64,000 bases of DNA. Origin: Shigella phage vB_SboM_Phaginator. Made by a program: the position numbers and the translations under genes. How positions within the stretch are numbered: position 1 is the stretch's first letter; the number at the start of each line of letters is the position of its first letter. Shown here piece by piece: positions 4,606 through 44,424 of the stretch. The notes beneath the pieces were generated by a model, which worked only from the letters and a program-made list of their open reading frames with translations, made no database searches and had not been told where the DNA came from. The stretch is taken from sequence record OL615012; one strand, written 5' to 3'.

Positions 4606-4610
4606 AATTT

Positions 4611-4982
4611 TCACTTAAATTTAATGGCTTGAAGGAGACTAATAATTCTTAAACGGCTTCTTTCATCTTTAACTGTAAAAGAAAGAGGGTCACCAGATTT
4701 CATAGTAATAGTACATTCAAAATCAAAATCTTCGGAAACTTCTTTGAAGAAGTCAAATTCTTCATCATAAATTAGAACATTACTCTGACAACTATGAAGA
4801 ATTTTTCCATCATTTCCAGATGCTGTACTAATCATTGTAACATTATGACCTTTCATATCTTCAACGATAAATTCACTAGTCAATATTACAGCATTAATAG
4901 AACTATTCCTATTACTAGCAGAAAGTAGATATTTCTGTTCTTCACCTTCACGAATGCGATATTTCTTACCAATTTTAAACAT
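4611..4982 (-). CDS. hypothetical protein (123 aa)
   Basis: ORF-track ORF co-directional in the early array between gene 39 and dexA. Confidence 0.6.
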   Translation of the reverse strand: MFKIGKKYRIREGEEQKYLLSASNRNSSINAVILTSEFIVEDMKGHNVTMISTASGNDGKILHSCQSNVLIYDEEFDFFKEVSEDFDFECTITMKSGDPLSFTVKDERSRLRIISLLQAIKFK

Positions 4983-8922: not shown

Positions 8923-9154
8923 ATTTAATTAGTAATTTACAGACACTTTCATCTAGTGTAATTACCGTATCTGTATTACTGTGATATGATTGTTTTTCAA
9001 TTCGTTTAATTGCTAATATAGTATCACTTATAAGATAAAGCTTATGAAGGAGCTCAGCTCCTGTTACCATAACATCGAGATTATCTTGCTTATTAGTATG
9101 CTTCCTTATACCATCTATTAGACGATTTAAATATTTTGAATTGATGTTAATCAT
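8894..9154 (-). CDS. hypothetical protein (86 aa)
   Basis: ORF-track ORF immediately downstream of dda. Confidence 0.5.
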   Translation of the reverse strand: MININSKYLNRLIDGIRKHTNKQDNLDVMVTGAELLHKLYLISDTILAIKRIEKQSYHSNTDTVITLDESVCKLLIKFEEAIRGNN

Positions 9155-9160
9155 ATAGCC

Positions 9161-15339: not shown

Positions 15340-15549
15340 TTAAATTACATGATTATTTATAATAAATTCTCGCGGAACGTTAAAATACCCAATTTTAGTT
15401 AATATAACAATATCGCCGTTAATAATTACCGGAGAATAATCTTCTGGAGCATTAAATTTCCAATGGGCTCTAATATTATATCCATCAGAACCAAATGCTC
15501 GAGTAGCCGGTCTCCCGGCTTTTTGCCACGCGTAGAAATCAAATTTCAT
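15340..15549 (-). CDS. hypothetical protein (69 aa)
   Basis: ORF-track ORF between soc and gene 56. Confidence 0.5.
   Translation of the reverse strand: MKFDFYAWQKAGRPATRAFGSDGYNIRAHWKFNAPEDYSPVIINGDIVILTKIGYFNVPREFIINNHVI
15354..15361 (-). promoter_or_regulatory. late promoter (TATAAATA)
   Basis: Exact TATAAATA on the minus strand ~45 nt upstream of the soc ATG. Confidence 0.7.
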
Positions 15550-15740
15550 TTTGAATGATCTATAATTAATTTTAAATCTTCTTCACTGACAAAAATTTCG
15601 TCAGGACCTTCTATAACTTCAACCATACGAAGTTGATTAGTTAAGAGCTCACATACGAGCTCCTTGTTATAATCTTTAAATAGCTGGTCAATACGTTTCT
15701 TATGGGCTTTCTTAAGCTGACGCTTATTTAAACGAGTCAT
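15546..15740 (-). CDS. hypothetical protein (64 aa)
   Basis: ORF-track ORF; ATGA overlaps at both ends. Confidence 0.5.
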   Translation of the reverse strand: MTRLNKRQLKKAHKKRIDQLFKDYNKELVCELLTNQLRMVEVIEGPDEIFVSEEDLKLIIDHSK

Positions 15741-16258
15741 TAATAACCTCGGTCTTGACGAGCGAAGTTTTCAGCATTTTTCAGGTAATAAAGTTTAAAG
15801 ATTTCTTCAGCTGACATTCCAAGAGCAATAAATTTATTCATGAAAAAGTGAAATTGGTCAATCAGTTCAAATTTAATTTCAAGCTGATCTTCGGGAGATA
15901 AATCTTGAATTTTCTTGGATTGCATTTCAGAATAACGTTTCTTCCAAGGTTTCCATACAGCAGAAGCTTCTTTTTCACCATTACTCATACCACCAAGAGA
16001 AGTATATAGTTCGCGAGTTTCATCTGCGATATAATCGTCTTGGTTTCGCAACCAAGCAAGAACTTCTCCTGCAGTTTCAAGTGAATCAGGATGACGATTT
16101 GTTTCTGGTTTATCATTAGCCAAACGAATCTGTAAATGCCGCTGCATATCAAGCATAACCTGCAGTGGGTCAATATTGTGCATAATATTCTCAGCATATG
16201 CACGATTTGCTTTATCAACGCCTTCGATCAAATGAGCACATTCATTAAAGTAAGCCAT
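15740..16258 (-). CDS. 56: dCTPase/dUTPase (gp56)
   Basis: Start trimmed to MAYFNECAHLIEG..., giving 172 aa (T4 gp56 ~171 aa). Confidence 0.85.
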   Translation of the reverse strand: MAYFNECAHLIEGVDKANRAYAENIMHNIDPLQVMLDMQRHLQIRLANDKPETNRHPDSLETAGEVLAWLRNQDDYIADETRELYTSLGGMSNGEKEASAVWKPWKKRYSEMQSKKIQDLSPEDQLEIKFELIDQFHFFMNKFIALGMSAEEIFKLYYLKNAENFARQDRGY

Positions 16259-16292: not shown

Positions 16293-16317
16293 ATTATACA
16301 ATAAATATATAAAGCAA
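16293..16317 (-). promoter_or_regulatory. MotA-dependent middle promoter candidate for gene 56
   Basis: Minus strand TTGCTTTA (MotA box), 11 nt, TATAAT, ~35 nt upstream of the gene 56 ATG. Confidence 0.5.
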
Positions 16318-16329
16318 TAAGGAGGACAT

Positions 16330-17723: not shown

Positions 17724-18080
17724 TTAACCTCTATTCATAAAAGCATTAAAAATTTGGTCATCAATAGATGGCGCAGTAATATTTTCTGCATCATTTAGCA
17801 AATCATTAATTTCATCAGATAGCATAACACATGTACCTTTATTTCCTGTAATTGTTACTGCACAATTACGAACGTTTTCTTTATCAAATTTTAGGTTAAT
17901 ATTTTCGTAGTGAAAATCCTTTAATGCCGAATATATCTTTAAAATGAAATTGTCTTTTACTACAATAAACCCAACCTCACTATTAAAACGCGGTTCATGG
18001 AAACTGTAATAAACCTTTTCATCTATAAAATCGTATGAAATTTTTTCCATTTTTAAATATGAAAATTCAGAACTATACAT
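17724..18080 (-). CDS. hypothetical protein (118 aa)
   Basis: C-terminus IDDQIFNAFMNRG and its 3' DNA repeat the end of the next ORF. Confidence 0.6.
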   Translation of the reverse strand: MYSSEFSYLKMEKISYDFIDEKVYYSFHEPRFNSEVGFIVVKDNFILKIYSALKDFHYENINLKFDKENVRNCAVTITGNKGTCVMLSDEINDLLNDAENITAPSIDDQIFNAFMNRG

Positions 18081-21369: not shown

Positions 21370-22525
21370 TTAACTGTTCGAGGTCAGTTTCTAAATCAGC
21401 TGCTGATTTACTTTTACTTTCTGGAGATTTAAATTTTTCAACCTTTGAGTTAATCAATTCATCAACTTCAGCTTCAACAATTTCATTACTATCAATAGCA
21501 CCTAATTGATAAGCACGTTTAATAGCATCTCGGAATGGTTGATGCTTAAATAAAGGACCCCAGAATGTAGTGCAGTTGGTATCTTTTGCACGCCAAGATT
21601 TTTCTTCGCGAATCATCTCGCCGGTTTCTTCGTCAAGAAATTCACGAGCATACCAACCATTTTTAGGTTTTACTACAAATCCTAATTCAAGAGCCATATC
21701 TAGCAATCCAGAATAAGGATCAATACCACCGTCAAATTTAACATCAATAAAGAATTTACTTTTTTCTTTAACGGTACGAGATTTTTCTACATTTAGAACA
21801 AATTGATACCCCTGAAGATCAGAACCATCTTTAATCTGACGCTTACCGATAATGAATACTGTATCAGCCGAATACATTACGCCTGTACCACCTGTCATCA
21901 CGGTTTTACTAAACATTTCAATTGTTTCAATTGTATGGTTAACCGCAACGCACGGAATATTTTTAATGCTAAAATAAGGAGTAACAATACGGAATAATGA
22001 CTTCAGTGATTTAGCACGAGTCATATCTGCCACAGATTTTTCATTTAAGGCATCTTCCGTTTCTTTCTTAGAAGCCATATTACCGATTGAGTCGATGAAT
22101 ACAATAACCTTTTCACCACGCTCAATAGCTTCAAGCTGGTTCACCATATCAATTTTCAGCTGTTCAACTGACTGAATCGGCGTATGAATTACTCGTTCCG
22201 GGTCAACTCCCATGGATCGCAAATAAGCTGGAGTAATACCAAATTCACTATCATAGAATAGACAAACCGCGTCAGGATATTTGTTCAAATATGCCGCAAC
22301 CATAGTCAAAGACATATTTGATTTAAAGTGTTTAGAAGGCCCTGCGAAAATAGTTAAACCAGACTGCATGCCGCCATCAATCGCACCAGAAATAGCAATA
22401 TTAAGCATTGGGATTTTTGTACGGATTACATCCTTTTCATTAAAGAATTTAGATGTAGTCAGTTCAGCAGTCATTTTAGAAGTGGAAGCTTTAATCAAAC
22501 GGGATTTTAAATCTGCAATAGACAT
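21344..22525 (-). CDS. uvsX: UvsX recombinase (RecA-like)
   Basis: 393-aa ORF MSIADLKSRLIKASTSK...; near-identical to T4 UvsX as recalled. Confidence 0.95.
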   Translation of the reverse strand: MSIADLKSRLIKASTSKMTAELTTSKFFNEKDVIRTKIPMLNIAISGAIDGGMQSGLTIFAGPSKHFKSNMSLTMVAAYLNKYPDAVCLFYDSEFGITPAYLRSMGVDPERVIHTPIQSVEQLKIDMVNQLEAIERGEKVIVFIDSIGNMASKKETEDALNEKSVADMTRAKSLKSLFRIVTPYFSIKNIPCVAVNHTIETIEMFSKTVMTGGTGVMYSADTVFIIGKRQIKDGSDLQGYQFVLNVEKSRTVKEKSKFFIDVKFDGGIDPYSGLLDMALELGFVVKPKNGWYAREFLDEETGEMIREEKSWRAKDTNCTTFWGPLFKHQPFRDAIKRAYQLGAIDSNEIVEAEVDELINSKVEKFKSPESKSKSAADLETDLEQLSDMEEFNE

Positions 22526-22602
22526 TCATTTTTTCCATAGGCATCATTATATTTTCCTCACTGGTTAAAGATAGGGTAATTATAACACAATAAATTTAGG
22601 CA

Positions 22603-23451
22603 TTAATCGACTGCTATTGGATGAATAGCATTAAACTTATGAAACGCTTCTGATTTTTCTTTGCGCGAAACACACATGCGAAGAACCTTTAATGGCTCGT
22701 CTTCTTCACCCAACGATTTTCGTTTTTCAATATTCGACGTTTTCCAACGAGCTTGCTCTGGAAACTCTCTATTGATTTGCTCAAGCGCTCTATTATGTTT
22801 AGAATTACTGCGAATTGAACTGCACCCGCCAGGAGCTTGTGCTTTTCCAGATACAACCAGATATTTGAACAAGGCCAAATGCGGATAACCTTGATTAATT
22901 AAATTGAGAAATGCATACATATCTTCGCATAAATCAATTTTTCCATACCCAATTTGTTCTGTCGTAAGTTTTCCGAGGTCATACCATGTATTCGTGAATC
23001 CATATGAATTTTCACGATAATTACCCCAAGATGAAGTAATTTTAAAAATAGGTAGACGAGCATGGCCATGATAATACCCACAATCCATGGCATCCTCAAC
23101 ATATTGAATCAATTCATAGAACTGTTCACGAGTCAATTGATTGACTTTATCTACGCAACGACGATCATCTCTTTTTCGCATTGAACTCATACGAATAGTA
23201 GTATCATCGTCAATCATCCAGATTCGTTGACCTGCATACATATCAGTAATTGCTTTACGAGTACCGGCAATTCCGTTTACATCATCAGGAATAGTTATAA
23301 TTTTAGCTCTAGACCCATAAGCGTCATGATAAGCTTTTTCTTCATGTTCACGCACTACAATATGTGGTTCATAATCAGTCGGAAACATATCAAGGGCAGA
23401 AACTGCCCCTACGCGTTGATAGCTTGGAATTACGAATTGAATCATTTCCAC
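22603..23451 (-). CDS. glycosyltransferase at the beta-gt locus, putatively beta-glucosyl-HMC alpha-glucosyltransferase
   Basis: 282-aa ORF between uvsX and 42; not the ~351-aa T4 beta-gt; IDDDTT looks like a GT-A DxD motif. Confidence 0.6.
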   Translation of the reverse strand: MEMIQFVIPSYQRVGAVSALDMFPTDYEPHIVVREHEEKAYHDAYGSRAKIITIPDDVNGIAGTRKAITDMYAGQRIWMIDDDTTIRMSSMRKRDDRRCVDKVNQLTREQFYELIQYVEDAMDCGYYHGHARLPIFKITSSWGNYRENSYGFTNTWYDLGKLTTEQIGYGKIDLCEDMYAFLNLINQGYPHLALFKYLVVSGKAQAPGGCSSIRSNSKHNRALEQINREFPEQARWKTSNIEKRKSLGEEDEPLKVLRMCVSRKEKSEAFHKFNAIHPIAVD

Positions 23452-24182
23452 TCACCGTTATAATCTTTTTTCACAATATGAGTTTCGCCAGTATTCCACC
23501 AATGATCAACCAAGTAAAAATGACGAGAATATACATGAAGACTTCCAACATTCCATATAATAGAACCTGCTTTATACTGACGAGTTGAATCGCCGGCATT
23601 CAAATCAGATACTAATTTATCTAATACGTATTTTTGCCATGCATAATCATTACGGAATCCGAAGACCACATCATTTGAGCGCATGCTTACTACTGCATTG
23701 ACTTTCTTATCACGAATCAGGTACTGTACTGTATTAGTACACATGAAATCTGACATACCATCTTTATTGTAATCAAATTGCATGGATGGACGAGTATAAA
23801 TCATGATACCACGTCGAGAATCAGGATTTTGACCAAGTTCAGCTAAACACATATCATACTGGGCATAGTTATCTTCTGACCAAATAGCCCAACCATAATT
23901 CGAGTTAATTTCGCCTTTAGAAGATGCTACCTGCTGCCAAATCTTTGGTGTTTCACCTGGAATATCTTTAACAAACAAGCTCTTAGATTTATACCATTCA
24001 AGTTCACGCTGAATGTATTCATCATTAAGAGCGCCAAAAATAAACGGTTCATCTGCTACAAATGATGCGCCAATAATTTCAATAGTTTTAACACCAGTTT
24101 TATCAACTACGAAATCTTTTTCTTTTAATGCAAGCCCCAAATGAAGACGGATTTCTTCAACTGTCATAGAGTCACTAATCAT
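23442..24182 (-). CDS. 42: dCMP hydroxymethylase (gp42)
   Basis: 246-aa ORF, T4 gp42 length; thymidylate-synthase-like fold. Confidence 0.9.
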   Translation of the reverse strand: MISDSMTVEEIRLHLGLALKEKDFVVDKTGVKTIEIIGASFVADEPFIFGALNDEYIQRELEWYKSKSLFVKDIPGETPKIWQQVASSKGEINSNYGWAIWSEDNYAQYDMCLAELGQNPDSRRGIMIYTRPSMQFDYNKDGMSDFMCTNTVQYLIRDKKVNAVVSMRSNDVVFGFRNDYAWQKYVLDKLVSDLNAGDSTRQYKAGSIIWNVGSLHVYSRHFYLVDHWWNTGETHIVKKDYNGEWK

Positions 24183-24975: not shown

Positions 24976-24985
24976 AATAATTTCC

Positions 24986-25222
24986 TCAAATGCAAGTAGT
25001 AATTACTCCAGTAGTGCTTATGCAGGTATTACCCATTTGCACACCTAAAGATCCATTTGTATTCACATGAAGATTATCATCAATTTTAACTGATATTTTA
25101 CCATTAGTGTGAATAACGGTGCTAGATTCAATCACAGGTTGAGTATCATTTTCAACACTAACAAATGGAACTGCTGCTAATGCAACTAAACAAACTGCTA
25201 AGCATCCCATAACAATTTTCAT
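24986..25222 (-). CDS. secreted small protein (78 aa)
   Basis: Trimmed to the ATG after GGAGAATAAA; signal peptide MKIVMGCLAVCLVALAAVPFVS. Confidence 0.6.
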   Translation of the reverse strand: MKIVMGCLAVCLVALAAVPFVSVENDTQPVIESSTVIHTNGKISVKIDDNLHVNTNGSLGVQMGNTCISTTGVITTCI

Positions 25223-25259
25223 TTTATTCTCCAAATCTGTATCAGTAGTTGATAGTTGT

Positions 25260-25405: not shown

Positions 25406-28102
25406 TCAGCCAAACAGGAAGTCTAACGAAGCTTTTTCTTCATAGTCCATACCAGCCGATTCACACATGCCTGCAAGCGGTTTAACAAACGATTTTTGGA
25501 ACAAAGTCGAGTAGTCAATCCAAGACAGTACGTCAGAACGAATTTCTTTTGGAAGTTCTGTACCCGACGGCCAAGCAATGCATTTGTCACCAAATGGATT
25601 TCCTTCACGCAATGGAAGAACCATTACTTTATTTCCATCCAAAATTGGAGCTACACCTAAACCGTTAACAGCTCGACGATAAGTTAGCACCCCACGAATA
25701 TGGAACGGGCATTTAAATCCTGGCCAACCTTTATCGTCATATTTCGCTATATCGTTCGCGGTTTTTACTTCAGCAATAACTTTATAGTCAAGTTGACGAT
25801 ATTCTTTCTCAAAGTTCTTATAGTATTCTTGAACAGACTCTTCACCTTCCTGAAGAATACGACGAATACTTTCTTCGAGAGCTTCTTGCACTGCTTTTGG
25901 TGTTGAACTCTGCTGAGTTTCCATACCCATGATTTTTAGATGTGGTTCAGCAAAACGCTTATCTTCCATATCATAAACGTTCAGAGCATAACGCTTTTTC
26001 GCTTTCCAAAATCCACCAACGCCCTTTGAACCAAGTGGAGGGCAAGAAATAGCTTCACGGTCCATATGCATCAGATGCTCGCGGTTATTCATATAATCAC
26101 ATAACTCACGATATGCAACATCAATCATAGGTTCCATCTTTTTCTTACCGAACTGATTCATGAATTCAACTAAATCGTTCTGCTCTTTGAATCGGTCAAG
26201 ACCAACTTTTTCAATAACTTTATCTACACAAACATATACCGAATCAGTATCACCTGCTGCAATGAAATCTTCGTCATTAGTTCCGCATACTTTATTCAGA
26301 TATTCATTAATTTTACGAGCAATCCACTGAATACCAACTTGGCCGAAAATTGTGATAGCAGTAGCATTTCGCAAATCATAGTAACGGAAATGAATATTAC
26401 CAAGAGCACCATAAAGACTGTTAATAAGAATTTTACGGTTCAGCTGATTTGTATTAGCAAGTGTAGCTGCTTTTTCACATTCCTCAATCAGACTATTGAG
26501 AACAGATTCAGTATAATTCGATAGTTCATTTAAGAAATCATCATTGAACTTAACATATCGTTCAACTTCTGGTTTAGTTGAACAAGACCCTGCGCCTTTC
26601 ATAATAATCTTTTTAATAGCTTCGGCATTCATTTCTTCAGCGAACATTTTCTTTTTCCAATCTTTACGCTGGAAAAATACTTTAGCGATTTCCTTTGGAA
26701 TGATACCTTCTTGATGCTTATCATACATCCATCCATTCGGAGAACAAGAATATTCATCACTCGGTTTAGGAGCTGTTCCTGCGATATATTCATGAATTGG
26801 ATGAACTTTAAACTGACCACGAATAGTCTCAGGACTAATGTTAACCTGACGAATAATGCTCGGATACAGAGACGTCAAGTCAAAACTCATAATATATCGA
26901 CGAGCAATTGGTTTAGGTTCAAATACGAATGCACCCGGAAAACTCTGTTTAACGTGCGAACCTTGTTGAGGAATAACCTTATGTTCACCTTTCAATGAGT
27001 TAAAAATAATAGCATCCCAGGTTTTAATAGGACTCATTACACCGGAAAAAGGCATTTTAGCGTAATAAGACATACTTAAAACTAGATCGATAAACCCGCG
27101 AATTTTATCAATTGCTTGAACTGATTCTACGTCAATGATGTTATAACTAATGTATCGTTGATGATTAGTCTCACGAAGTTTATTAATAGGACCGTCGTAT
27201 GGTAATTTACCTTTTTTGGTTTCATGCTGAGCAACTGATTCCAAAGAGAATGACGGCAAATTAGTAAAAGCGAATTTCTTGTACAAATCTAAATAATCAA
27301 GAATAGATACGCCATCAATAGAATAAATTTCTTTGCTACCGTACATATTTTGAATTAGTTTAGATTTTACTCGACCGATTGGAGAGAAGCGTTTCATACT
27401 ACGTTCACCGAGAACCATTTTAACGCGATTCATGATATACGGAACGTCAAACCCCTCAATATTCCAACCAGTAAAAATAGCAGGTCGTTTCTGTTCCCAG
27501 AGATTGATATATTCCATGAGCATATCACGCTCATTATCGAATGGCATATAAATTACTCGGTCAAGAATTTCTTGAGGAACTTCATCACCACCTTCACAGT
27601 CAAGCTTAGCAGCTAACTTTGCATCCCATTTTGATACTGAACCATACATTGAATTCAAAAGGTCGAAAACATAAAAACGATCATCAATTGAATCGTAATG
27701 AGTGATAGCATCAATTTCATATTCAGCTTTCATTGGGTCAGGAAATTTATCACCAGTAACCTCAATGTCACAATTAGCTACACGAACAAATTTTCGGTCA
27801 TAAACAATTTCTGAACCGTATGTATCACTGATATAAGCGAGTTTAAAATCGTTCATACCGAGAGCTTCGAGACCGATGTCTTCCATTCGTTTCATCCAAT
27901 CTCGGGCATCTTTCATTGATGGAAATTTTTGAGGAGCACAGTTTTTACCGTAAATGTCTTTGTATTTTGATTCTTCCTTACAGTGTCTAAACATAGTTGG
28001 AAGATATTCTACTTCACGAGTACGTTCCTTTCCGTTTTCATCAATATAACGTTCAACAATGTTATTTCCGACTGTTTCAATAGAGATATAAAATTCTTTC
28101 AT
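25406..28102 (-). CDS. 43: DNA polymerase (gp43, family B)
   Basis: 898-aa ORF, T4 gp43 length; exonuclease and polymerase motifs (YGDTDS). Confidence 0.95.
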   Translation of the reverse strand: MKEFYISIETVGNNIVERYIDENGKERTREVEYLPTMFRHCKEESKYKDIYGKNCAPQKFPSMKDARDWMKRMEDIGLEALGMNDFKLAYISDTYGSEIVYDRKFVRVANCDIEVTGDKFPDPMKAEYEIDAITHYDSIDDRFYVFDLLNSMYGSVSKWDAKLAAKLDCEGGDEVPQEILDRVIYMPFDNERDMLMEYINLWEQKRPAIFTGWNIEGFDVPYIMNRVKMVLGERSMKRFSPIGRVKSKLIQNMYGSKEIYSIDGVSILDYLDLYKKFAFTNLPSFSLESVAQHETKKGKLPYDGPINKLRETNHQRYISYNIIDVESVQAIDKIRGFIDLVLSMSYYAKMPFSGVMSPIKTWDAIIFNSLKGEHKVIPQQGSHVKQSFPGAFVFEPKPIARRYIMSFDLTSLYPSIIRQVNISPETIRGQFKVHPIHEYIAGTAPKPSDEYSCSPNGWMYDKHQEGIIPKEIAKVFFQRKDWKKKMFAEEMNAEAIKKIIMKGAGSCSTKPEVERYVKFNDDFLNELSNYTESVLNSLIEECEKAATLANTNQLNRKILINSLYGALGNIHFRYYDLRNATAITIFGQVGIQWIARKINEYLNKVCGTNDEDFIAAGDTDSVYVCVDKVIEKVGLDRFKEQNDLVEFMNQFGKKKMEPMIDVAYRELCDYMNNREHLMHMDREAISCPPLGSKGVGGFWKAKKRYALNVYDMEDKRFAEPHLKIMGMETQQSSTPKAVQEALEESIRRILQEGEESVQEYYKNFEKEYRQLDYKVIAEVKTANDIAKYDDKGWPGFKCPFHIRGVLTYRRAVNGLGVAPILDGNKVMVLPLREGNPFGDKCIAWPSGTELPKEIRSDVLSWIDYSTLFQKSFVKPLAGMCESAGMDYEEKASLDFLFG

Positions 28103-28140
28103 AGATATTCCTTAGTTTATAGCCCGAGTTATTAGGCTCT
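28103..28140 (-). promoter_or_regulatory. gene 43 translational operator
   Basis: Leader AGAGCCUAAUAACUCGGGCUAUAAACUAAGGAAUAUCU-AUG matches the T4 gp43 autoregulatory hairpin plus RBS as recalled. Confidence 0.65.
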
Positions 28141-28160
28141 TGATATATTATACTCCAAAT

Positions 28161-28178
28161 AAGGGGCCGAAGCCCCTT
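28161..28178 (-). terminator. tetraloop hairpin (AAGGGGC-UUCG-GCCCCUU)
   Basis: 7-bp GC stem with UUCG loop between the small ORF and the gene 43 leader; weak U-tract. Confidence 0.45.
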
Positions 28179-28180
28179 GC

Positions 28181-28402
28181 TTAAATTAGTACTATTTGTC
28201 GGTGAAAAATTGTCATTCCATCTGCATTAATTGACTTAACGACTGCGGTAAAGTGTTTTTGTTCTGGATGAATTAATTTTTGAAATTCTACCTGAAATTT
28301 TAGTTGGAGGTTTTCTGGTAAATCAAAAAGTGTTTCTGTTGCAGAAAGATTATATTTTTCTTTAAGAGACGCCATGTATTCTTGTGGAGTTATAGCAGTC
28401 AT
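28181..28402 (-). CDS. small hypothetical protein (73 aa) between regA and 43
   Basis: Trimmed to MTAITPQEYMASLKEKY... starting 1 nt after the regA stop; I do not recall a gene here in T4. Confidence 0.4.
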   Translation of the reverse strand: MTAITPQEYMASLKEKYNLSATETLFDLPENLQLKFQVEFQKLIHPEQKHFTAVVKSINADGMTIFHRQIVLI

Positions 28403-28403
28403 A

Positions 28404-28772
28404 TTAATTACCAATCGTATATTTAGGAACGAGTTTCCATTCATGTTTTTGTTTAAAAGAAATAACTCGGAAGTTATTAGTTAAATCTTTCATAAAAGTT
28501 CTTTGACCAGGAACGATTTCAATCAGTCCCCAATCTTCTAATAGCCATGCAATCGAATCACGACGAACTTCATCTTCTTCTGTCATTTCAACTTGACGAC
28601 CATCCATACGAAGCATTTCTTTAAAATGAACGATATAATATAGTCCTTTTTTCTGAAGAATATGACAGGACTGATACAGAACTTTATCTTTATTATTAGC
28701 AATTCCCATACGAGTCAAAGTTTCTTTTACTTTCAGAAAATCTTCAGGTTTTTTAAGAGTAATTTCAATCAT
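28404..28772 (-). CDS. regA: RegA translational repressor
   Basis: 122-aa ORF MIEITLKKPEDFLK... matches T4 RegA as recalled. Confidence 0.95.
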   Translation of the reverse strand: MIEITLKKPEDFLKVKETLTRMGIANNKDKVLYQSCHILQKKGLYYIVHFKEMLRMDGRQVEMTEEDEVRRDSIAWLLEDWGLIEIVPGQRTFMKDLTNNFRVISFKQKHEWKLVPKYTIGN

Positions 28773-28773
28773 T

Positions 28774-29337
28774 TTACCATTCCAATGCTAGTTTTTTGAG
28801 TTGTTTCTGTTCTTTTACGTTCTTAGTCACTTCTTTCAAAAAATCATCCGTGACTAAACCTTTTAGTTCTTTTAATACTAAAGGAAGTTTTCCATTTTTA
28901 GTAAGAATTGATTTATAGTTAATTGCATCATTTGTGTTAACTTGATACCGCTTAGCAAGTAACTTAATAATCAATACTTCGGTGGAATCTTCAACTAGTT
29001 TTGCCCATTTACCATATCTTTTACCACGAGGAACTGCAGCCATTAGATAATTAAAATGGGCTTCATCACTTAAGCCTGATCCAATTAAATTCATTGCATA
29101 CACTGCCGGCATGCACTCCGGAAATTGTGACAATGCATTTTCAACCATGAATTTTGAATAATCTTTTTGAGCAATAGAGCATTTAGTTTTATTATTAATA
29201 GCTCCAATTATTTCAAAAAATTCATTTTCAGCTTTTTCCTTGAAAGAATCAGCAGCAGATTGGACAGCTGTCCAATCTTTTGAATACCAAGCAACTTGAT
29301 GCTCGTTTAATTGAATATCATCTTCAAATAAGCTCAT
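28774..29337 (-). CDS. 62: clamp loader small subunit (gp62)
   Basis: 187-aa ORF, T4 gp62 length, between regA and 44. Confidence 0.9.
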
Positions 29338-35058: not shown

Positions 35059-36259
35059 ATTTTGTAATAATGTCAAACTGTTCTTTAAAGCAGAAGCTTG
35101 AATCTTGGTGCTGATACAAAAATTCATATGCTTTTTCTCGCTCACGGTCATAAAGAGCTCGGTCAGATGACAGTTCTTTAATACGCTCAAATGTTGATTC
35201 CATGTCATTTTCATCAAACCAAATGATACCGCTATCATGAGAAATTAACGGAGTATTATCAACACGGAATTTTAAATTTTCGCCAGTAGATTTCCAAAAT
35301 ACCGGAATTGTTCCGCATGCACCAAGCTCGAGATGAGTATATTCTAAAGAACGTTGTAAATATTTTTTGTCCAACTTACTCAGTTGATAACCAAATCCGG
35401 ATTTACTCATGCGTTCAAGCATTTCGCTATTTACATAACGGTCAAGAATTTGCGTTGGCAAATTAGGAGCAATTTTAATTTGGTCTACTTGATGAAGACG
35501 ATAATACTCGTATGGAATTCCTTTTTCTTTAATGGGAATGAACGCTGGAGAACGTTCCAGACCTTCCATAATAGTACTTAGTCCTGCAGGTTTAAGATGT
35601 TTTTCGTGAAAATCAAACATCTGATAAAAGCCTTTCCATGTAGTAGTACGACCAATCCAACGGTTGATATTCATGTTAATTTCAGAAACATCTTTCCAGT
35701 AGGTTGATCGAACTTTCGCAATATCCATAGGAGGCTGAAAGTTATATACGGTCGGTGCTTCTTCAATATCATCAAACAGAGAAACAGTTTCTGGATACCA
35801 TTCTTTCATCAGAACTTTATTAAAATCACCATTATCAGAATGGCTAAAAATAACATCAGCTCGACGAACAGTTTCTTCTAATCCCAAATTTCGACGCAAA
35901 GAAAGAGAAGAATGGTCATGCTGATAAACTACAACACGAACAGAAGGTTTAATGTTATCAATAATTTTTTTATAGTTATTAATAGTGTCTTCTTCAACAG
36001 AAGTAGCAGGAACTGAATTGATAATTAGAATATCACAATCATTTACCAGCTTAAGTGTTTTATCGTATTCTTTTGCCAATAAAACTGGAATTGAAAATGA
36101 CTTATAATCATGCGCGCAATTACGAGTAAATGATTTATCTTTAGCATAAACCAAAGTTACTTCATGACCATTTTTAATAAACCAATCACGTTGCTCGAGT
36201 GAGAATTTTGTTACACCACAACCTTCAAGACCTCGAGCCATAAAAATACATACTTTCAT
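35057..36259 (-). CDS. agt: DNA alpha-glucosyltransferase
   Basis: 400-aa ORF M(K/R)ICIFMARGLEGCGVTKFSLEQRDWFIKNGHEV...; near-identical to T4 alpha-gt as recalled. Confidence 0.95.
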   Translation of the reverse strand: MKVCIFMARGLEGCGVTKFSLEQRDWFIKNGHEVTLVYAKDKSFTRNCAHDYKSFSIPVLLAKEYDKTLKLVNDCDILIINSVPATSVEEDTINNYKKIIDNIKPSVRVVVYQHDHSSLSLRRNLGLEETVRRADVIFSHSDNGDFNKVLMKEWYPETVSLFDDIEEAPTVYNFQPPMDIAKVRSTYWKDVSEINMNINRWIGRTTTWKGFYQMFDFHEKHLKPAGLSTIMEGLERSPAFIPIKEKGIPYEYYRLHQVDQIKIAPNLPTQILDRYVNSEMLERMSKSGFGYQLSKLDKKYLQRSLEYTHLELGACGTIPVFWKSTGENLKFRVDNTPLISHDSGIIWFDENDMESTFERIKELSSDRALYDREREKAYEFLYQHQDSSFCFKEQFDIITK

Positions 36260-36283
36260 TTAATATCCTCTTTGTTTTGGTTT

Positions 36284-37753: not shown

Positions 37754-37831
37754 TTTCACCTCTTAGCTCAATTCATAGATCTATTATATCATAATATTTG
37801 AAGATCTATCTTAAAGCATAGAGGATATCAG

Positions 37832-38101
37832 TTATCTAAGTAAGCAGTATGCTTGGAACACTTTCTCCATCATCTTTTTAAATTCATGAATATCTATATA
37901 ATGACTAGTTAGATCAGCATGATATAAAAAGTCTAAAAACTTTTCATGTGTACTAGCATATTCACTTTCATTTAATTCAGAAACATGGCTTTCCCAATAT
38001 CCAACACCAGTCTTATTTGGGAAAAATGAAATTTTCATGTATTGGTCAACATAGAAAATGCCATAATTTTCAATAGTAATAGAAATATTAATAAATTTCA
38101 T
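37832..38101 (-). CDS. hypothetical protein (89 aa)
   Basis: ORF-track ORF in the 55-nrdH interval. Confidence 0.5.
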   Translation of the reverse strand: MKFINISITIENYGIFYVDQYMKISFFPNKTGVGYWESHVSELNESEYASTHEKFLDFLYHADLTSHYIDIHEFKKMMEKVFQAYCLLR

Positions 38102-40299: not shown

Positions 40300-40770
40300 T
40301 TAATCATGTGTCCACACCCCATCGGTATTTGACCAAAGTCGCTGATTATCTGATCCTCGCCACAGCTTTTTAGTCGGAAGATTTTTCTCATACTTCCCAT
40401 CAATAATAACATCAACATATTTAAGCATTTCTAGTTGTTTAATATCTTCAAACTTATATCCTGTCCACAACCAAATGCTTTTATTGGGATAAAGATTTTT
40501 TACTGTTTGAACAATGCAATGAATAACATCTCGGTTATCAGGATAGAGAGGGTCACCTCCGGTTATAGTCAATCCTTCTATATAATCATTATTCAAACAT
40601 TCAATTAATTGTTCTAGTGTTTCACTAGTGAATGGAATACCATTTCTAGCATTCCATGTTGATTTATTATAACACCCTTCGCATTTATGCAAACAACCTG
40701 TAACGAAAAGAACGACCCTGCAACCAGGGCCATTCACAAAATCGCAAGGATAAAATCTATCATAATTCAT
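40300..40770 (-). CDS. nrdG: anaerobic ribonucleotide reductase activase NrdG (radical SAM)
   Basis: 156-aa ORF with CLHKCEGCYN cluster; T4 NrdG length. Confidence 0.9.
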   Translation of the reverse strand: MNYDRFYPCDFVNGPGCRVVLFVTGCLHKCEGCYNKSTWNARNGIPFTSETLEQLIECLNNDYIEGLTITGGDPLYPDNRDVIHCIVQTVKNLYPNKSIWLWTGYKFEDIKQLEMLKYVDVIIDGKYEKNLPTKKLWRGSDNQRLWSNTDGVWTHD

Positions 40771-42584
40771 TGGTGTTTAACCCTATGCATGATTTCTTTA
40801 TTTTTACCGAGATTAAATCCGCGCTCGTTCGGATTTCCCAAATAACCGCATGTTCTTCTTATGGTATTCATCTTTTTAGGATCAGTTTCTCCACAAATAG
40901 AACAAACAAATCCGTTTTCAGTAGGAGTCATTTCATGGGTACTTCCACACGTAAAACATTTATCTACTGGCATGTTAACACCAAAATAATCTAAATGCTG
41001 TGCAGCATAATCCCATACGGCCTCAAGACCTTTTAGATTATTTTTCATATCAGGAAGTTCAACATAAGAAATGTGACCACCTGTCGCAATGAAATGATAT
41101 GGCGCTTCACGAGAAATCTTTTCAAACGGAGTAATATTTTCTTCTACTGAAACATGGAAACTATTAGTGTACCAGCCTTTATCAGTAACATCTTTTACGC
41201 TTCCATATTTTTCTGTATCAAGTTTACAGAAGCGATAACAAAGGTTTTCAGCAGGAGTAGAATACAAGCTAAAAGCAAATCCGGTTCTTTCAGTCCACTG
41301 TTTAAGACGAGCATTCATTTTAGTTAAAATTTCTTGTCCAATATCACGACCGACAAGAATATTCAATTCGTGAATACCAATGTATCCTAGAGACACTGAA
41401 CTTCTGCCATTTTTAAATAACTCAATTATATCGTCATCAGGTTTAAGACGAACCCCGAATGCACCTTCTTGGTAAAGAATAGGAGCAACAGTCGCTTTAA
41501 CTCCTTTTAAGGAACTAATTCTACACATCAAAGCTTCAAAACATAAATCCATTCGTTCATTGAATAATTCAACAAATTTCTGTTCATTGAATTGTGTTCC
41601 AATATAAGAATCTAATGCGATACGAGGAAGATTCAGTGTTACAACACCGAGATTATTACGTCCATCAAGAATTTCATTGCCAGTCGAATCTTTCCATACA
41701 CTCAAGAAACTGCGGCAACCCATTGGAGAAACAGGAATAGATGAACCAGTGATAGCTTTATTGTTCTTAGCTGAAATAATATCAGGATACATCCTTTTGC
41801 TTGCACACTCTAGAGCAAGCTGTTTAATATCATAGTTCGGATCGTCTTTGTAAAGATTAACACCTTCTTCAACGAACATAACAAGCTTAGGGAAAATAGG
41901 AGTTATCCCATCACGACCAAGACCTTTAATGCGATTTTTCAGAATTGCTTTCTGAATCATTCGTTCAGTCCAGTCAGTTCCCGTACCAAATGTAATTGTT
42001 ACAAAAGGCGTTTGTCCGTTTGAACTAAAGAGAGTATTTACTTCATATTCATAAGCTTGGAATGCATCGTATACGTCTTTTTCTGTTTTAGATTGAGCAT
42101 AATTCAACGCATCAGCGATTTGCCATTTTTCTGCATCCTCAATATGTTTTGCATAGGTGCGTTTAACATAAGGAGAAAGTACTTTATCTACATTCGCAAA
42201 AGTCGTTCCGCCATATTGATGGGAAGCAACTTGCGCAGTAATTTGTGCCATAATTGCAGTAGCAACGCCAATTGATTTAGGAGTTTCAATCTGCGCATTA
42301 CCAAGCTTAAATCCGTTCTCAAGCATTCCTTTTAAATCTACTAAACAGCAATTAGTAAATGGAAGAGCAGGGGAATAATCAATATCATGGAAATGAATAA
42401 TTCCGCTTTCATGCGCTTTCATAATAAAAGACGGGACCATATTTTTGGCAATGTGTTTAGACACAATACCAGCCATAAGGTCCCGTTGAGTTGGAAAAAC
42501 ACGAGAATCTTTATTAGCATTCTCGTTTAAAAGGTCTTTATTAGTTTTATGAATCAATCCTTCAATTTCTTTTTCAATTGTCAT
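40767..42584 (-). CDS. nrdD: anaerobic ribonucleoside-triphosphate reductase NrdD, uninterrupted
   Basis: 605-aa continuous ORF with C-terminal zinc ribbon CFTCGS...CSICG; T4 NrdD is 605 aa from two exons. Confidence 0.9.
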   Translation of the reverse strand: MTIEKEIEGLIHKTNKDLLNENANKDSRVFPTQRDLMAGIVSKHIAKNMVPSFIMKAHESGIIHFHDIDYSPALPFTNCCLVDLKGMLENGFKLGNAQIETPKSIGVATAIMAQITAQVASHQYGGTTFANVDKVLSPYVKRTYAKHIEDAEKWQIADALNYAQSKTEKDVYDAFQAYEYEVNTLFSSNGQTPFVTITFGTGTDWTERMIQKAILKNRIKGLGRDGITPIFPKLVMFVEEGVNLYKDDPNYDIKQLALECASKRMYPDIISAKNNKAITGSSIPVSPMGCRSFLSVWKDSTGNEILDGRNNLGVVTLNLPRIALDSYIGTQFNEQKFVELFNERMDLCFEALMCRISSLKGVKATVAPILYQEGAFGVRLKPDDDIIELFKNGRSSVSLGYIGIHELNILVGRDIGQEILTKMNARLKQWTERTGFAFSLYSTPAENLCYRFCKLDTEKYGSVKDVTDKGWYTNSFHVSVEENITPFEKISREAPYHFIATGGHISYVELPDMKNNLKGLEAVWDYAAQHLDYFGVNMPVDKCFTCGSTHEMTPTENGFVCSICGETDPKKMNTIRRTCGYLGNPNERGFNLGKNKEIMHRVKHQ

Positions 42585-44025: not shown

Positions 44026-44208
44026 TTTTCACCAATTAATTTCGCAATTTATTAAGTTCTTCATCATCAATCCAGGATTCTAGTCCTGATGGCAGGGCAC
44101 ATTCAATTTCCCAAAGAAGTTCTTCAATTTTATGAAGACGATCTAGTTCTTCAGCAGGAATAGTAACCATTGACGGAGCTCGTGATACATTAATATCGTA
44201 AATCATAT

Positions 44209-44424
44209 TTACCCCAATTTAACCATACAATCGCCGTATTTCCACTTAGAAATAGACTTTTCACCATTAGAATAATAAACTTCGAGTTTAGCACGATTAT
44301 TTTTAATTTGAATAACCTTGGCTGTCATCAAAGTTCCATACCCATAATAAACTGCAACTTCATCACCTACATATACCGCGCTTCCGCGATAATCATGAAT
44401 ATAATCAGTTCCTTCGAGCATCAT
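44209..44424 (-). CDS. hypothetical protein (71 aa)
   Basis: ORF-track ORF; ATGA overlap with nrdC. Confidence 0.55.
   Translation of the reverse strand: MMLEGTDYIHDYRGSAVYVGDEVAVYYGYGTLMTAKVIQIKNNRAKLEVYYSNGEKSISKWKYGDCMVKLG

What the first reader, a model, noticed from the sequence alone, without database searches (positions are those of the whole stretch)
28181..28402. Extra small ORF between regA and gene 43
About 300 bp separate the regA stop from the gene 43 ATG. A 73-codon ORF (MTAITPQEYMASLKEKYNLS...) starts 1 nt after the regA stop and is followed by a UUCG hairpin and the recognisable gene 43 operator. I do not recall a gene at this position in T4.
Basis: partly seen in the sequence, partly recalled or inferred. 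Interest (0 to 1): 0.35.

Follow-up and report, generated by a model that had tools for sequence, protein, structure and literature searches.

The report
Known accessory gene orf43.1, absent from T4
The extra 73-codon reading frame between regA and the DNA polymerase gene is a real but already catalogued small phage gene (orf43.1), which about half of T4's close relatives carry and T4 lacks; its function is still unknown.

Summary
The window is a T4-type (Tequatrovirus) genome. On the minus strand, regA (28404-28772) is followed after one nucleotide by a 73-codon ORF (28181-28402). Then come the C(UUCG)G hairpin, a predicted middle promoter, the gene 43 operator hairpin and gene 43. T4, T2, T6 and RB69 have only a 78-81 nt spacer at this site.

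The ORF is not new. Its product is identical to RB18 ORF43.1, matches Pfam PF25760 'Phage RB18 ORF43.1 protein' (106 bits) and PHROG 3826, and is named 'ORF43.1 in regA 3' region' in UniRef.

It is a real gene:
- dN/dS is 0.05-0.40 among close alleles.
- GC by codon position matches regA.
- Homologues lie at the same site in at least five Tevenvirinae genera.
- The AlphaFold model is confident (pLDDT 90).

It behaves as a swappable cassette. Tequatrovirus records split into 255 with no ORF, 177 RB18-type and 69 RB51-type. The two types are 44% identical in protein, while their flanks are 97-99% identical in DNA.

No fold, family or defence-library match indicates a function. My best guess is a dispensable small binding protein, translated by coupling to regA. 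Verdict: already known, low interest.

The parts
28404..28772 (-). regA, the translational repressor gene. Its stop codon (28404-28406) lies one nucleotide upstream of the orf43.1 ATG.
   Evidence: Pfam PF01818 at E 1.2e-74. DNA is 98.9-99.2% identical to T4 and RB51 regA.
28181..28402 (-). orf43.1: 73 codons plus TAA, encoding an 8479-Da protein with pI 6.25. The product is identical to RB18 gp43.1.
   Evidence: PF25760 at 105.9 bits against a cut-off of 27, and phrog_3826 at E 5e-38. Exact-sequence cluster named 'ORF43.1 in regA 3' region'. dN/dS 0.05-0.40. AF2 pLDDT 90.
28161..28178 (-). C(UUCG)G tetraloop hairpin AAGGGGC-UUCG-GCCCCUU, starting 3 nt after the orf43.1 stop codon (28181-28183).
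   Evidence: Seven-pair stem in the RNA fold. The hairpin is conserved directly after the ORF stop, or after the regA stop where there is no ORF, in all genera aligned. Stem changes are compensatory, and IME523 has a UACG loop. One record annotates it as a rho-independent terminator.
28147..28173 (-). Predicted middle promoter for gene 43, overlapping the hairpin. Its -10 TATAAT is at 28147-28152.
   Evidence: Yersinia phage fPS-90 annotates a 'predicted middle promoter' at the homologous 27 nt. The GGAGTATAAT motif is largely conserved across genera. The sigma-70 scan does not call it, as expected for a promoter without a -35 box. No transcript data were examined here.
28121..28138 (-). Gene 43 translational operator hairpin AGCCU-AAUAACUC-GGGCU.
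   Evidence: Five-pair stem with an 8-nt loop in the fold. Identical to T4. Matches the review's description: an 18-base hairpin, a -UAAC- loop, and a position upstream of the AUG (PMC3014915).
28108..28113 (-). Shine-Dalgarno sequence AAGGAA of gene 43.
   Evidence: Read directly from the sequence. The AAGGAA motif is invariant in the seven-genome alignment.
25406..28102 (-). Gene 43, the 898-aa family B DNA polymerase.
   Evidence: ORF list. The first 1400 nt are 97.6% identical to T4 gene 43.

Best explanation
The ORF at 28181-28402 (minus strand) is the known gene orf43.1. It is a genuine, dispensable, protein-coding accessory gene that forms the last cistron after 45-44-62-regA.

Shown here:
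1. It encodes an 8.5-kDa soluble protein under purifying selection. The confidently predicted fold has two helices and a C-terminal beta-hairpin.
2. Wherever the family occurs, the gene sits exactly between the regA stop and the UNCG hairpin that precedes gene 43's own promoter and operator.
3. Its start codon is within 0-1 nt of the regA stop, or overlaps it, in 8 of 9 lineages.
4. Tequatrovirus genomes show three states at this site: no ORF (as in T4, T2 and T6), the RB18-type allele (this window), and the RB51-type allele. The alleles are as divergent as those of different genera, while the flanks are 97-99% identical.

Inferred:
1. It is transcribed with regA on read-through early or middle transcripts and translated by termination-reinitiation coupling. 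Its A+U-rich start region (UAAUUAAUAUGAC) resembles RegA operators, so RegA may repress it.
2. The three states are exchanged between co-infecting phages by homologous recombination in the conserved flanks. Independent insertions or deletions are less likely.
3. The protein is a non-enzymatic binding protein. Its conserved polar stripe (D27, E30, Q33, Q37) probably contacts a host-encoded or competitor-encoded target rather than RegA or gp43, and it affects fitness only on some hosts. I give this functional guess about 0.3. The confidence score below refers to the identity, the coding status and the cassette behaviour.
For: Identity:
- PF25760 at 105.9 bits and phrog_3826.
- RB18 annotates the ORF as 'gp43.1'.
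- The exact sequence is in a cluster named 'ORF43.1 in regA 3' region' and is seen on 88 contigs.

Coding status:
- Nei-Gojobori dN/dS is 0.05-0.40 in 15 pairs of RB18-type alleles. It is below 0.55 between allele types, where dS is saturated.
- GC1/2/3 matches regA, and only 90 of 20000 shuffles give an ORF this long.
- 14 invariant or nearly invariant residues across 29 clusters.
- AF2 pLDDT 90 and pTM 0.73. BFVD models of family members superpose at TM 0.74-0.93.

Position:
- The gene lies between regA and 43 in Tequatrovirus, Dhakavirus, Moonvirus, Karamvirus, Kanagawavirus and three metagenomic or unclassified contigs.
- Start-codon junctions are TAA-T-ATG, TGA-T-ATG, TAA-T-GTG or overlapping TAATG.

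Cassette behaviour:
- 255 records have the T4-type junction, 177 are RB18-type and 69 are RB51-type. Together these make 501 of about 502-504 Tequatrovirus-like records.
- Between the window and RB51, gene 62, regA, the spacer and gene 43 are 97.3%, 99.2%, 97.4% and 98.5% identical in DNA, but orf43.1 is 56.8% identical.
- RegA and ORF43.1 protein identities are incongruent: 100 vs 44 (window/RB51), 99 vs 44 (CF1/MW325771), 76 vs 74 (window/L025).

Dispensability:
- The gene is absent from T4, T2, T6 and RB69.

RegA operator resemblance:
- The review gives the SELEX consensus aaAAUUGUUAUGUAA and notes that an upstream UAA may contribute to RegA recognition (PMC3014915).
Against: There is no direct expression evidence for this phage: no ribosome profiling, proteomics or transcript maps were available.

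Nothing indicates the protein's function:
- PADLOC, NCBIfam and PDB sequence searches found nothing.
- An exhaustive HMM search of 1.84 billion representatives found only family members and one repeat artefact.

Within the RB18-type allele, selection is purifying rather than diversifying. The arms-race reading therefore rests only on the presence/absence pattern and the depth of allelic divergence.

The direction of change in T4, loss or never gained, cannot be decided. Outgroup genera (Krischvirus, Jiaodavirus, Gelderlandvirus, Marfavirus, Gualtarvirus) lack the ORF.

The upstream SD is weak (GGU about 9 nt from the AUG) in the RB18-type allele.
Confidence: 0.88

Rival explanations
1. The ORF is a chance open frame in an A+T-rich non-coding spacer and is not translated.
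For: The SD is weak. The sequence is A+T-rich (31% GC). No expression data are available.
Against: Only 0.45% of shuffles give such an ORF, and the codon-position GC pattern equals that of regA. dN/dS is 0.05-0.40. The frame is kept in alleles with 57% DNA identity and across at least five genera. The fold prediction is confident.
Confidence: 0.02
2. It is a recent insertion specific to this phage lineage, such as a novel moron or mobile ORF, rather than an old shared gene.
For: The difference from T4 is a clean 223 nt with a 4-nt TTAA microhomology at the borders. Outgroup genera lack any ORF at this site. Cronobacter phage leN has an unrelated ORF at the same site, so the site can accept insertions.
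Against: The same allele occurs in 177 phage records, and diverged alleles in 133 more. dS between allele types is saturated. There is no endonuclease or transposase domain, and no flanking direct or inverted repeats beyond 4 nt.
Confidence: 0.03
3. ORF43.1 is a functional partner of its neighbours. It would modulate RegA-mediated repression or gp43 autoregulation, for example by binding RegA made from the same message.
For: The gene is always adjacent to regA and its translation is coupled to regA. It always sits upstream of the gene 43 operator. A conserved polar patch could bind a conserved partner.
Against: There is no co-variation. RegA is 100% identical in phages whose ORF43.1 proteins are 44% identical, and in phages with no ORF43.1 at all. 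gp43 and its operator are likewise unchanged. Gene order in this replication cluster is conserved anyway, so adjacency carries little weight.
Confidence: 0.15
4. ORF43.1 is a small helix-turn-helix-like or winged-helix-like nucleic-acid-binding regulator.
For: The topology is helix, short helix, long helix, then a beta-hairpin. The motif GLSxTQTxFDLxExxQxxFQ carries invariant Gln residues on the long helix. Four of 29 members give sub-threshold hits to the HTH family DUF4817, with best E 0.01.
Confidence: 0.08

Closest known systems
ORF43.1 of phage RB18 (Pfam PF25760 'Phage_RB18_ORF43', PHROG 3826, UniRef 'Uncharacterized protein ORF43.1 in regA 3' region')
   Same: The 73-aa product is identical to that of RB18. 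The gene occupies the same position, one nucleotide after regA and one before the hairpin. The profile matches over its full length.
   Different: Nothing differs. From memory only, this gene was first described by Miller & Jozwik, J Bacteriol 1990, 'conserved regA and variable orf43.1 genes in T4-like bacteriophages'. That paper could not be retrieved here.
RB51-type orf43.1 allele (RB32ORF047c; 78 aa, 9.2 kDa)
   Same: It belongs to the same family (PF25760), sits at the same site and has the same downstream hairpin, promoter and operator. Its flanks are 97-99% identical to the window.
   Different: It shares only 44% protein and 57% DNA identity with the window's gene. It has a 5-residue longer N-terminus. 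It starts 10 nt after the regA stop with its own AAGG Shine-Dalgarno sequence, rather than a 1-nt coupling junction.
T4 regA-43 intercistronic region (C(UUCG)G hairpin plus the gene 43 translational operator)
   Same: The 78 nt between the ORF stop and the gene 43 AUG are 100% identical to the T4 spacer. The operator fits the published description (PMC3014915).
   Different: In T4 this stretch directly follows the regA stop. Here orf43.1 lies between them, so the hairpin closes orf43.1 rather than regA.
Small polymorphic accessory ORFs of T-even genomes (variable genes that differ between otherwise collinear relatives)
   Same: orf43.1 shows presence/absence and allelic polymorphism within a 97-99% identical backbone. 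The window carries roughly a dozen other such differences from T4.
   Different: Those differences lie mostly in other parts of the map. orf43.1 sits inside the highly conserved core replication cluster, and its borders are exact to the nucleotide.

Membership tests
ORF43.1 family (Pfam PF25760 / PHROG 3826) | Sequence match to the family profile above the curated threshold, over the full length | tested here: met
   PF25760 at 105.9 bits against a cut-off of 27, residues 5-73 matching profile positions 1-69 of 69. phrog_3826 at E 5.4e-38, positions 1-73 of 73. All 29 cluster representatives match PF25760.
ORF43.1 family (Pfam PF25760 / PHROG 3826) | Location between regA and gene 43 in a T4-type genome | tested here: met
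   This holds in the window and in every homologue-bearing locus examined, 17 in total.
ORF43.1 family (Pfam PF25760 / PHROG 3826) | Size of about 71-79 aa with the conserved K14, L19, F26-D27-L28 and E30 core | tested here: met
   The window protein has 73 aa, and all six invariant columns are present in it.
T4 gene 43 translational operator | 18-nt hairpin with a 5-bp stem and an 8-nt loop containing UAAC, upstream of the SD and AUG of gene 43 | tested here: met
   AGCCU-AAUAACUC-GGGCU at 28138-28121. Identical to T4. The description is from PMC3014915. Binding by gp43 was not testable here.
UNCG tetraloop hairpin | A G+C-rich stem closed by C-G around a UUCG loop, conserved through compensatory changes | tested here: met
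   GGGGC-UUCG-GCCCC. Relatives have GGGAC-UUCG-GUCCC, GGGCC-UUCG-GGCCC and GGAGCC-UACG-GGCUCC.
Helix-turn-helix / winged-helix DNA-binding proteins | Structural superposition on known HTH or winged-helix domains, or a profile match above threshold | tested here: not met
Free-standing homing endonuclease genes or other mobile ORFs of T-even phages | A GIY-YIG or HNH nuclease domain, or terminal repeats | tested here: not met
   PF25760 is the only Pfam domain. There are no flanking repeats beyond a 4-nt TTAA.
Known anti-defence or defence proteins (PADLOC models) | A profile match | tested here: not met
   Four family members gave no PADLOC match at E up to 1. PADLOC models cover defence systems rather than anti-defence proteins, so this test is weak.

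The most novel reading that the evidence does not exclude
The regA-43 gap may be a fixed 'slot' holding at least six ancient, deeply diverged orf43.1 allelic lineages, plus an empty state. These are exchanged across Tevenvirinae genera independently of the backbone. The protein, whose fold has no solved relative, could be a host-range or counter-defence factor whose allele determines which hosts or competing elements the phage can overcome.

A secondary possibility concerns RNA. The regA segment encoding FRVISF may pair over a long range with the gene 43 operator or SD in read-through transcripts. The perfect complement is 10 nt in T4-type phages and 12 nt in JS98. orf43.1 would then lengthen the loop between the two arms.
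Probability: 0.15. Interest if true: 0.45.

Novelty: already known. Interest (0 to 1): 0.13.

Why it matters
As a finding, it matters little. The gene has been annotated for decades, has its own Pfam and PHROG families, and occurs in hundreds of sequenced phages.

What remains open is its function. It is a confidently folded orphan protein inside the otherwise highly conserved core replication cluster. It is absent from T4, T2, T6 and RB69, the classical T-even phages checked here, which may explain why nothing on its function turned up in the paper and database searches made here. It occurs as three cleanly separable states in about 500 near-identical genomes. That makes it an easy target for isogenic knock-in and knock-out tests of host range or defence evasion.

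Tried and rejected
Literature:
- Full-text searches for 'orf43.1', 'gp43.1', 'gene 43.1', 'regA-43', PF25760 and phrog_3826 found nothing relevant.
- The 1990 and 1992 Miller/Jozwik papers are not held. The attribution of the first description therefore rests on memory and on database names.

Fold and family searches:
- BFVD returned only family members.
- An HMM search against PDB sequences and the PADLOC and NCBIfam libraries gave nothing.
- The afdb50 library was unavailable.
- Rfam found nothing in 27800-28900.

Wider homology:
- The exhaustive profile search added only two more divergent members, P0034 and P0035, both located after regA.
- It also returned P0033, a 3009-aa tandem-repeat translation matched in 49 short stretches, which I treat as an artefact.

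Ideas considered and dropped:
- Helix-turn-helix protein: not supported.
- Homology with the 105-aa ORF at the same site in Cronobacter phage leN: hhalign probability 0.3%, so unrelated.
- Mobile-element signatures: none.
- The 87-codon extended start at 28444: rejected because its extension overlaps regA and is not part of the family profile.

Not attempted:
- A linker-fused AF2 complex with RegA.

Full report
**1. What is in the sequence**

The window is the left end of a T4-type genome. It starts at T4 coordinate 1 and is collinear with T4. At the junction it is 100% identical to Shigella phage ESh30 and 99.5% identical to RB18.

All genes in this region are on the minus strand. Gene 43 is at 25406-28102 (898 aa) and regA at 28404-28772 (Pfam PF01818, E 1e-74). 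Genes 62, 44, 45, rpbA, 45.2 and 46 lie upstream.

One nucleotide after the regA stop, an ATG at 28402 opens a 73-codon frame that ends with TAA at 28181-28183. One nucleotide later begins GCAAGGGGCUUCGGCCCCUU, a seven-pair stem with a UUCG loop. Next come GGAGUAUAAU and the 18-nt hairpin AGCCU-AAUAACUC-GGGCU, then AAGGAA and the gene 43 AUG.

The hairpin fits the published description of the gene 43 operator: an 18-base hairpin with a UAAC-containing loop, upstream of the AUG (PMC3014915).

**2. Comparison with T4**

T4 (NC_000866) has 78 nt between regA and 43 and no ORF. T2 and T6 also have 78 nt, and RB69 has 81 nt.

The three-way alignment shows that the window differs from T4 by a clean 223-nt block, one T plus the 222-nt ORF. 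The only border homology is TTAA. The 78 nt downstream are 100% identical.

**3. The ORF is already known**

- Its product is identical to the RB18 protein annotated 'gp43.1'.
- It matches Pfam PF25760 'Phage RB18 ORF43.1 protein' at 105.9 bits against a cut-off of 27, and PHROG 3826 over its full length.
- The exact sequence sits in a 76-member cluster and is seen on 88 contigs. UniRef names it 'Uncharacterized protein ORF43.1 in regA 3' region'.

From memory, the gene was described by Miller & Jozwik (J Bacteriol 1990) as the 'variable orf43.1' next to the conserved regA. I could not retrieve that paper, so this attribution is recollection supported by the database names.

**4. It is a real gene**

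- Only 90 of 20000 shuffles of the 301-nt interval give a same-strand ORF this long.
- GC at codon positions 1/2/3 is 0.50/0.26/0.18, nearly the same as regA at 0.49/0.26/0.19.
- Among six RB18-type alleles, Nei-Gojobori dN/dS is 0.05-0.40, mostly near 0.13. Between allele types dS is saturated and dN is about 0.35-0.8.
- Twenty-nine 90%-identity clusters align with six invariant and eight nearly invariant residues: K14, Y17, L19, F26, D27, L28, E30, Q33, Q37, P46, F51, G62, R68 and E72.
- AlphaFold2 run on that alignment gives pLDDT 90 and pTM 0.73. The model has helix 6-16, a short turn at 25-27, helix 30-44 and a beta-hairpin at 50-58 and 64-72.
- BFVD models of other family members superpose at TM 0.74-0.93.

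**5. Distribution and evolution**

tblastn finds the family in 310 of 50,697 phage records, whereas RegA is found in 2365.

In every locus inspected the gene lies between regA and 43. These loci cover:
- Tequatrovirus: RB18, RB33, RB51, teqdroes, DalCa, Sf23, NiC89, VIPECOOM02 and fPS-90.
- Dhakavirus: JS98.
- Moonvirus: CF1.
- Karamvirus: CkP1.
- Kanagawavirus: IME523.
- MW325771 and two metagenomic contigs.

The start codon is 1 nt from the regA stop, or overlaps it, in 8 of 9 lineages. The RB51-type allele has a 10-nt gap with its own AAGG. This points to translational coupling, which is an inference.

Within Tequatrovirus the site has three states:
- T4-type direct junction, 255 records.
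- RB18-type allele, 177 records.
- RB51-type allele, 69 records.

Together these make 501 of the roughly 502-504 records.

Between the window and RB51, gene 62, regA, the spacer and gene 43 are 97.3%, 99.2%, 97.4% and 98.5% identical in DNA. orf43.1 is 56.8% identical, no closer than the window is to JS98 at 58.3%.

Protein identities of ORF43.1 do not follow those of RegA (RegA first, ORF43.1 second):
- window and RB51: 100% and 44%.
- CF1 and MW325771: 99% and 44%.
- window and contig L025: 76% and 74%.
- JS98 and contig L025: 89% and 39%.

The gene therefore behaves as a cassette with several old allelic lineages. These are most simply exchanged by homologous recombination in the conserved flanks, which is an inference.

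Outgroup genera lack any ORF at the site: Krischvirus, Jiaodavirus, Gelderlandvirus, Marfavirus and Gualtarvirus. Cronobacter phage leN has an unrelated 105-aa ORF there. Whether T4 lost the gene or never had it cannot be decided from these data.

**6. Function**

Nothing identifies a function.
- The PDB sequence search, PADLOC and NCBIfam are empty.
- An exhaustive profile search of 1.84 billion representatives returns only the family and one tandem-repeat artefact.

The protein is soluble, has pI 4.6-6.6 and carries no enzymatic motif. A helix-turn-helix reading was considered and is not supported.

RegA, gp43 and the operator stay unchanged whether the phage has one allele, the other, or none. 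A specific partnership with these neighbours is therefore less likely, at about 0.15. A role directed at something variable outside the cluster, such as a host factor or a competing element, is more likely at about 0.3. This is an inference from population pattern only.

The start region UAAUUAAUAUGAC resembles RegA operators as reviewed in PMC3014915: A+U-rich, including the AUG, with an upstream UAA. RegA repression is therefore plausible but untested.

**7. Verdict**

The feature is the already known, annotated gene orf43.1, so novelty is 'already known' and interest is low.

The remaining open question is the function of a confidently folded orphan protein. It sits in a three-state cassette inside the core replication cluster and would be straightforward to test genetically.

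Noticed in passing
window 28461-28470 and 28124-28133 (minus strand); L004 (JS98) regA nt 302-313 and gene 43 SD: In mRNA sense, regA nt 303-312 (CCGAGUUAUU, codons of the conserved peptide FRVISF) is a perfect 10-nt complement of the gene 43 operator loop and 3' stem (AAUAACUCGG). The same holds in T4 and RB51, and 149 of 5000 spacer shuffles reach this length. In JS98 the same regA segment, with synonymous differences, is a perfect 12-nt complement of the gene 43 SD region (17 of 5000 shuffles). Six other lineages show only 6-8 nt. This could be long-range occlusion of the gene 43 start region in read-through transcripts, or it could be chance.
   Followed up: partly
window 28161-28178; L004-L007, L009, L017, L025: The UNCG hairpin directly after the orf43.1 stop, or after the regA stop where there is no ORF, is kept across genera. 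Stem changes are compensatory: GGGGC/GCCCC, GGGAC/GUCCC, GGGCC/GGCCC and GGAGCC/GGCUCC. The loop is UUCG in most and UACG in IME523.
   Followed up: partly
window 16299-16318, 15362-15776, 22514-23459, 2807-2857, about 36250-36275, about 40750-40770, about 42046-42049: Compared with T4, the window has no tblastn match to dam, segF, segA, beta-glucosyltransferase, 60.1, mobB, mobC, I-TevII or 49.3. A 282-aa ORF at 22603-23451 replaces segA and b-gt. The 60.1/mobA region that separates genes 60 and 39 in T4 is reduced to 51 nt.
   Followed up: partly
window 4608-4979, 8930-9160, 17769-18077, 24976-25208, 37827-38086, 44033-44419: These are further small insertions or replacements relative to T4, each 230-390 nt. 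One example is an 82-aa hydrophobic-N-terminus ORF at 24986-25234, between imm.1 and gene 43. orf43.1 is thus one of roughly a dozen cassette-like differences in this 64 kb.
   Followed up: no
window 28181-28444 (minus strand): Several GenBank records annotate an 87-aa version of the protein that starts at an ATG inside regA (cluster members P0039, P0042, P0043, P0046). JS98-like phages have 80-85-aa versions. The extension is not part of the family profile and looks like a gene-caller artefact.
   Followed up: yes
L023 (Cronobacter phage leN) 1632-1949; L022 (Morganella phage MP1) 1012-1176: Other T4-like genera carry unrelated small ORFs around regA. Cronobacter phage leN has a 105-aa ORF between regA and 43, with hhalign probability 0.3% against the ORF43.1 family. 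Morganella phage MP1 has a 54-aa ORF between 62 and regA. The borders of regA seem to accept small genes repeatedly.
   Followed up: partly
P0033 (from the representative protein library): The top hit of the exhaustive profile search is a 3009-aa predicted protein made of one unit of about 60 aa repeated about 50 times. It matches in 49 short stretches covering only profile positions 37-68. It looks like a translated tandem DNA repeat whose summed score is inflated, not a relative.
   Followed up: partly
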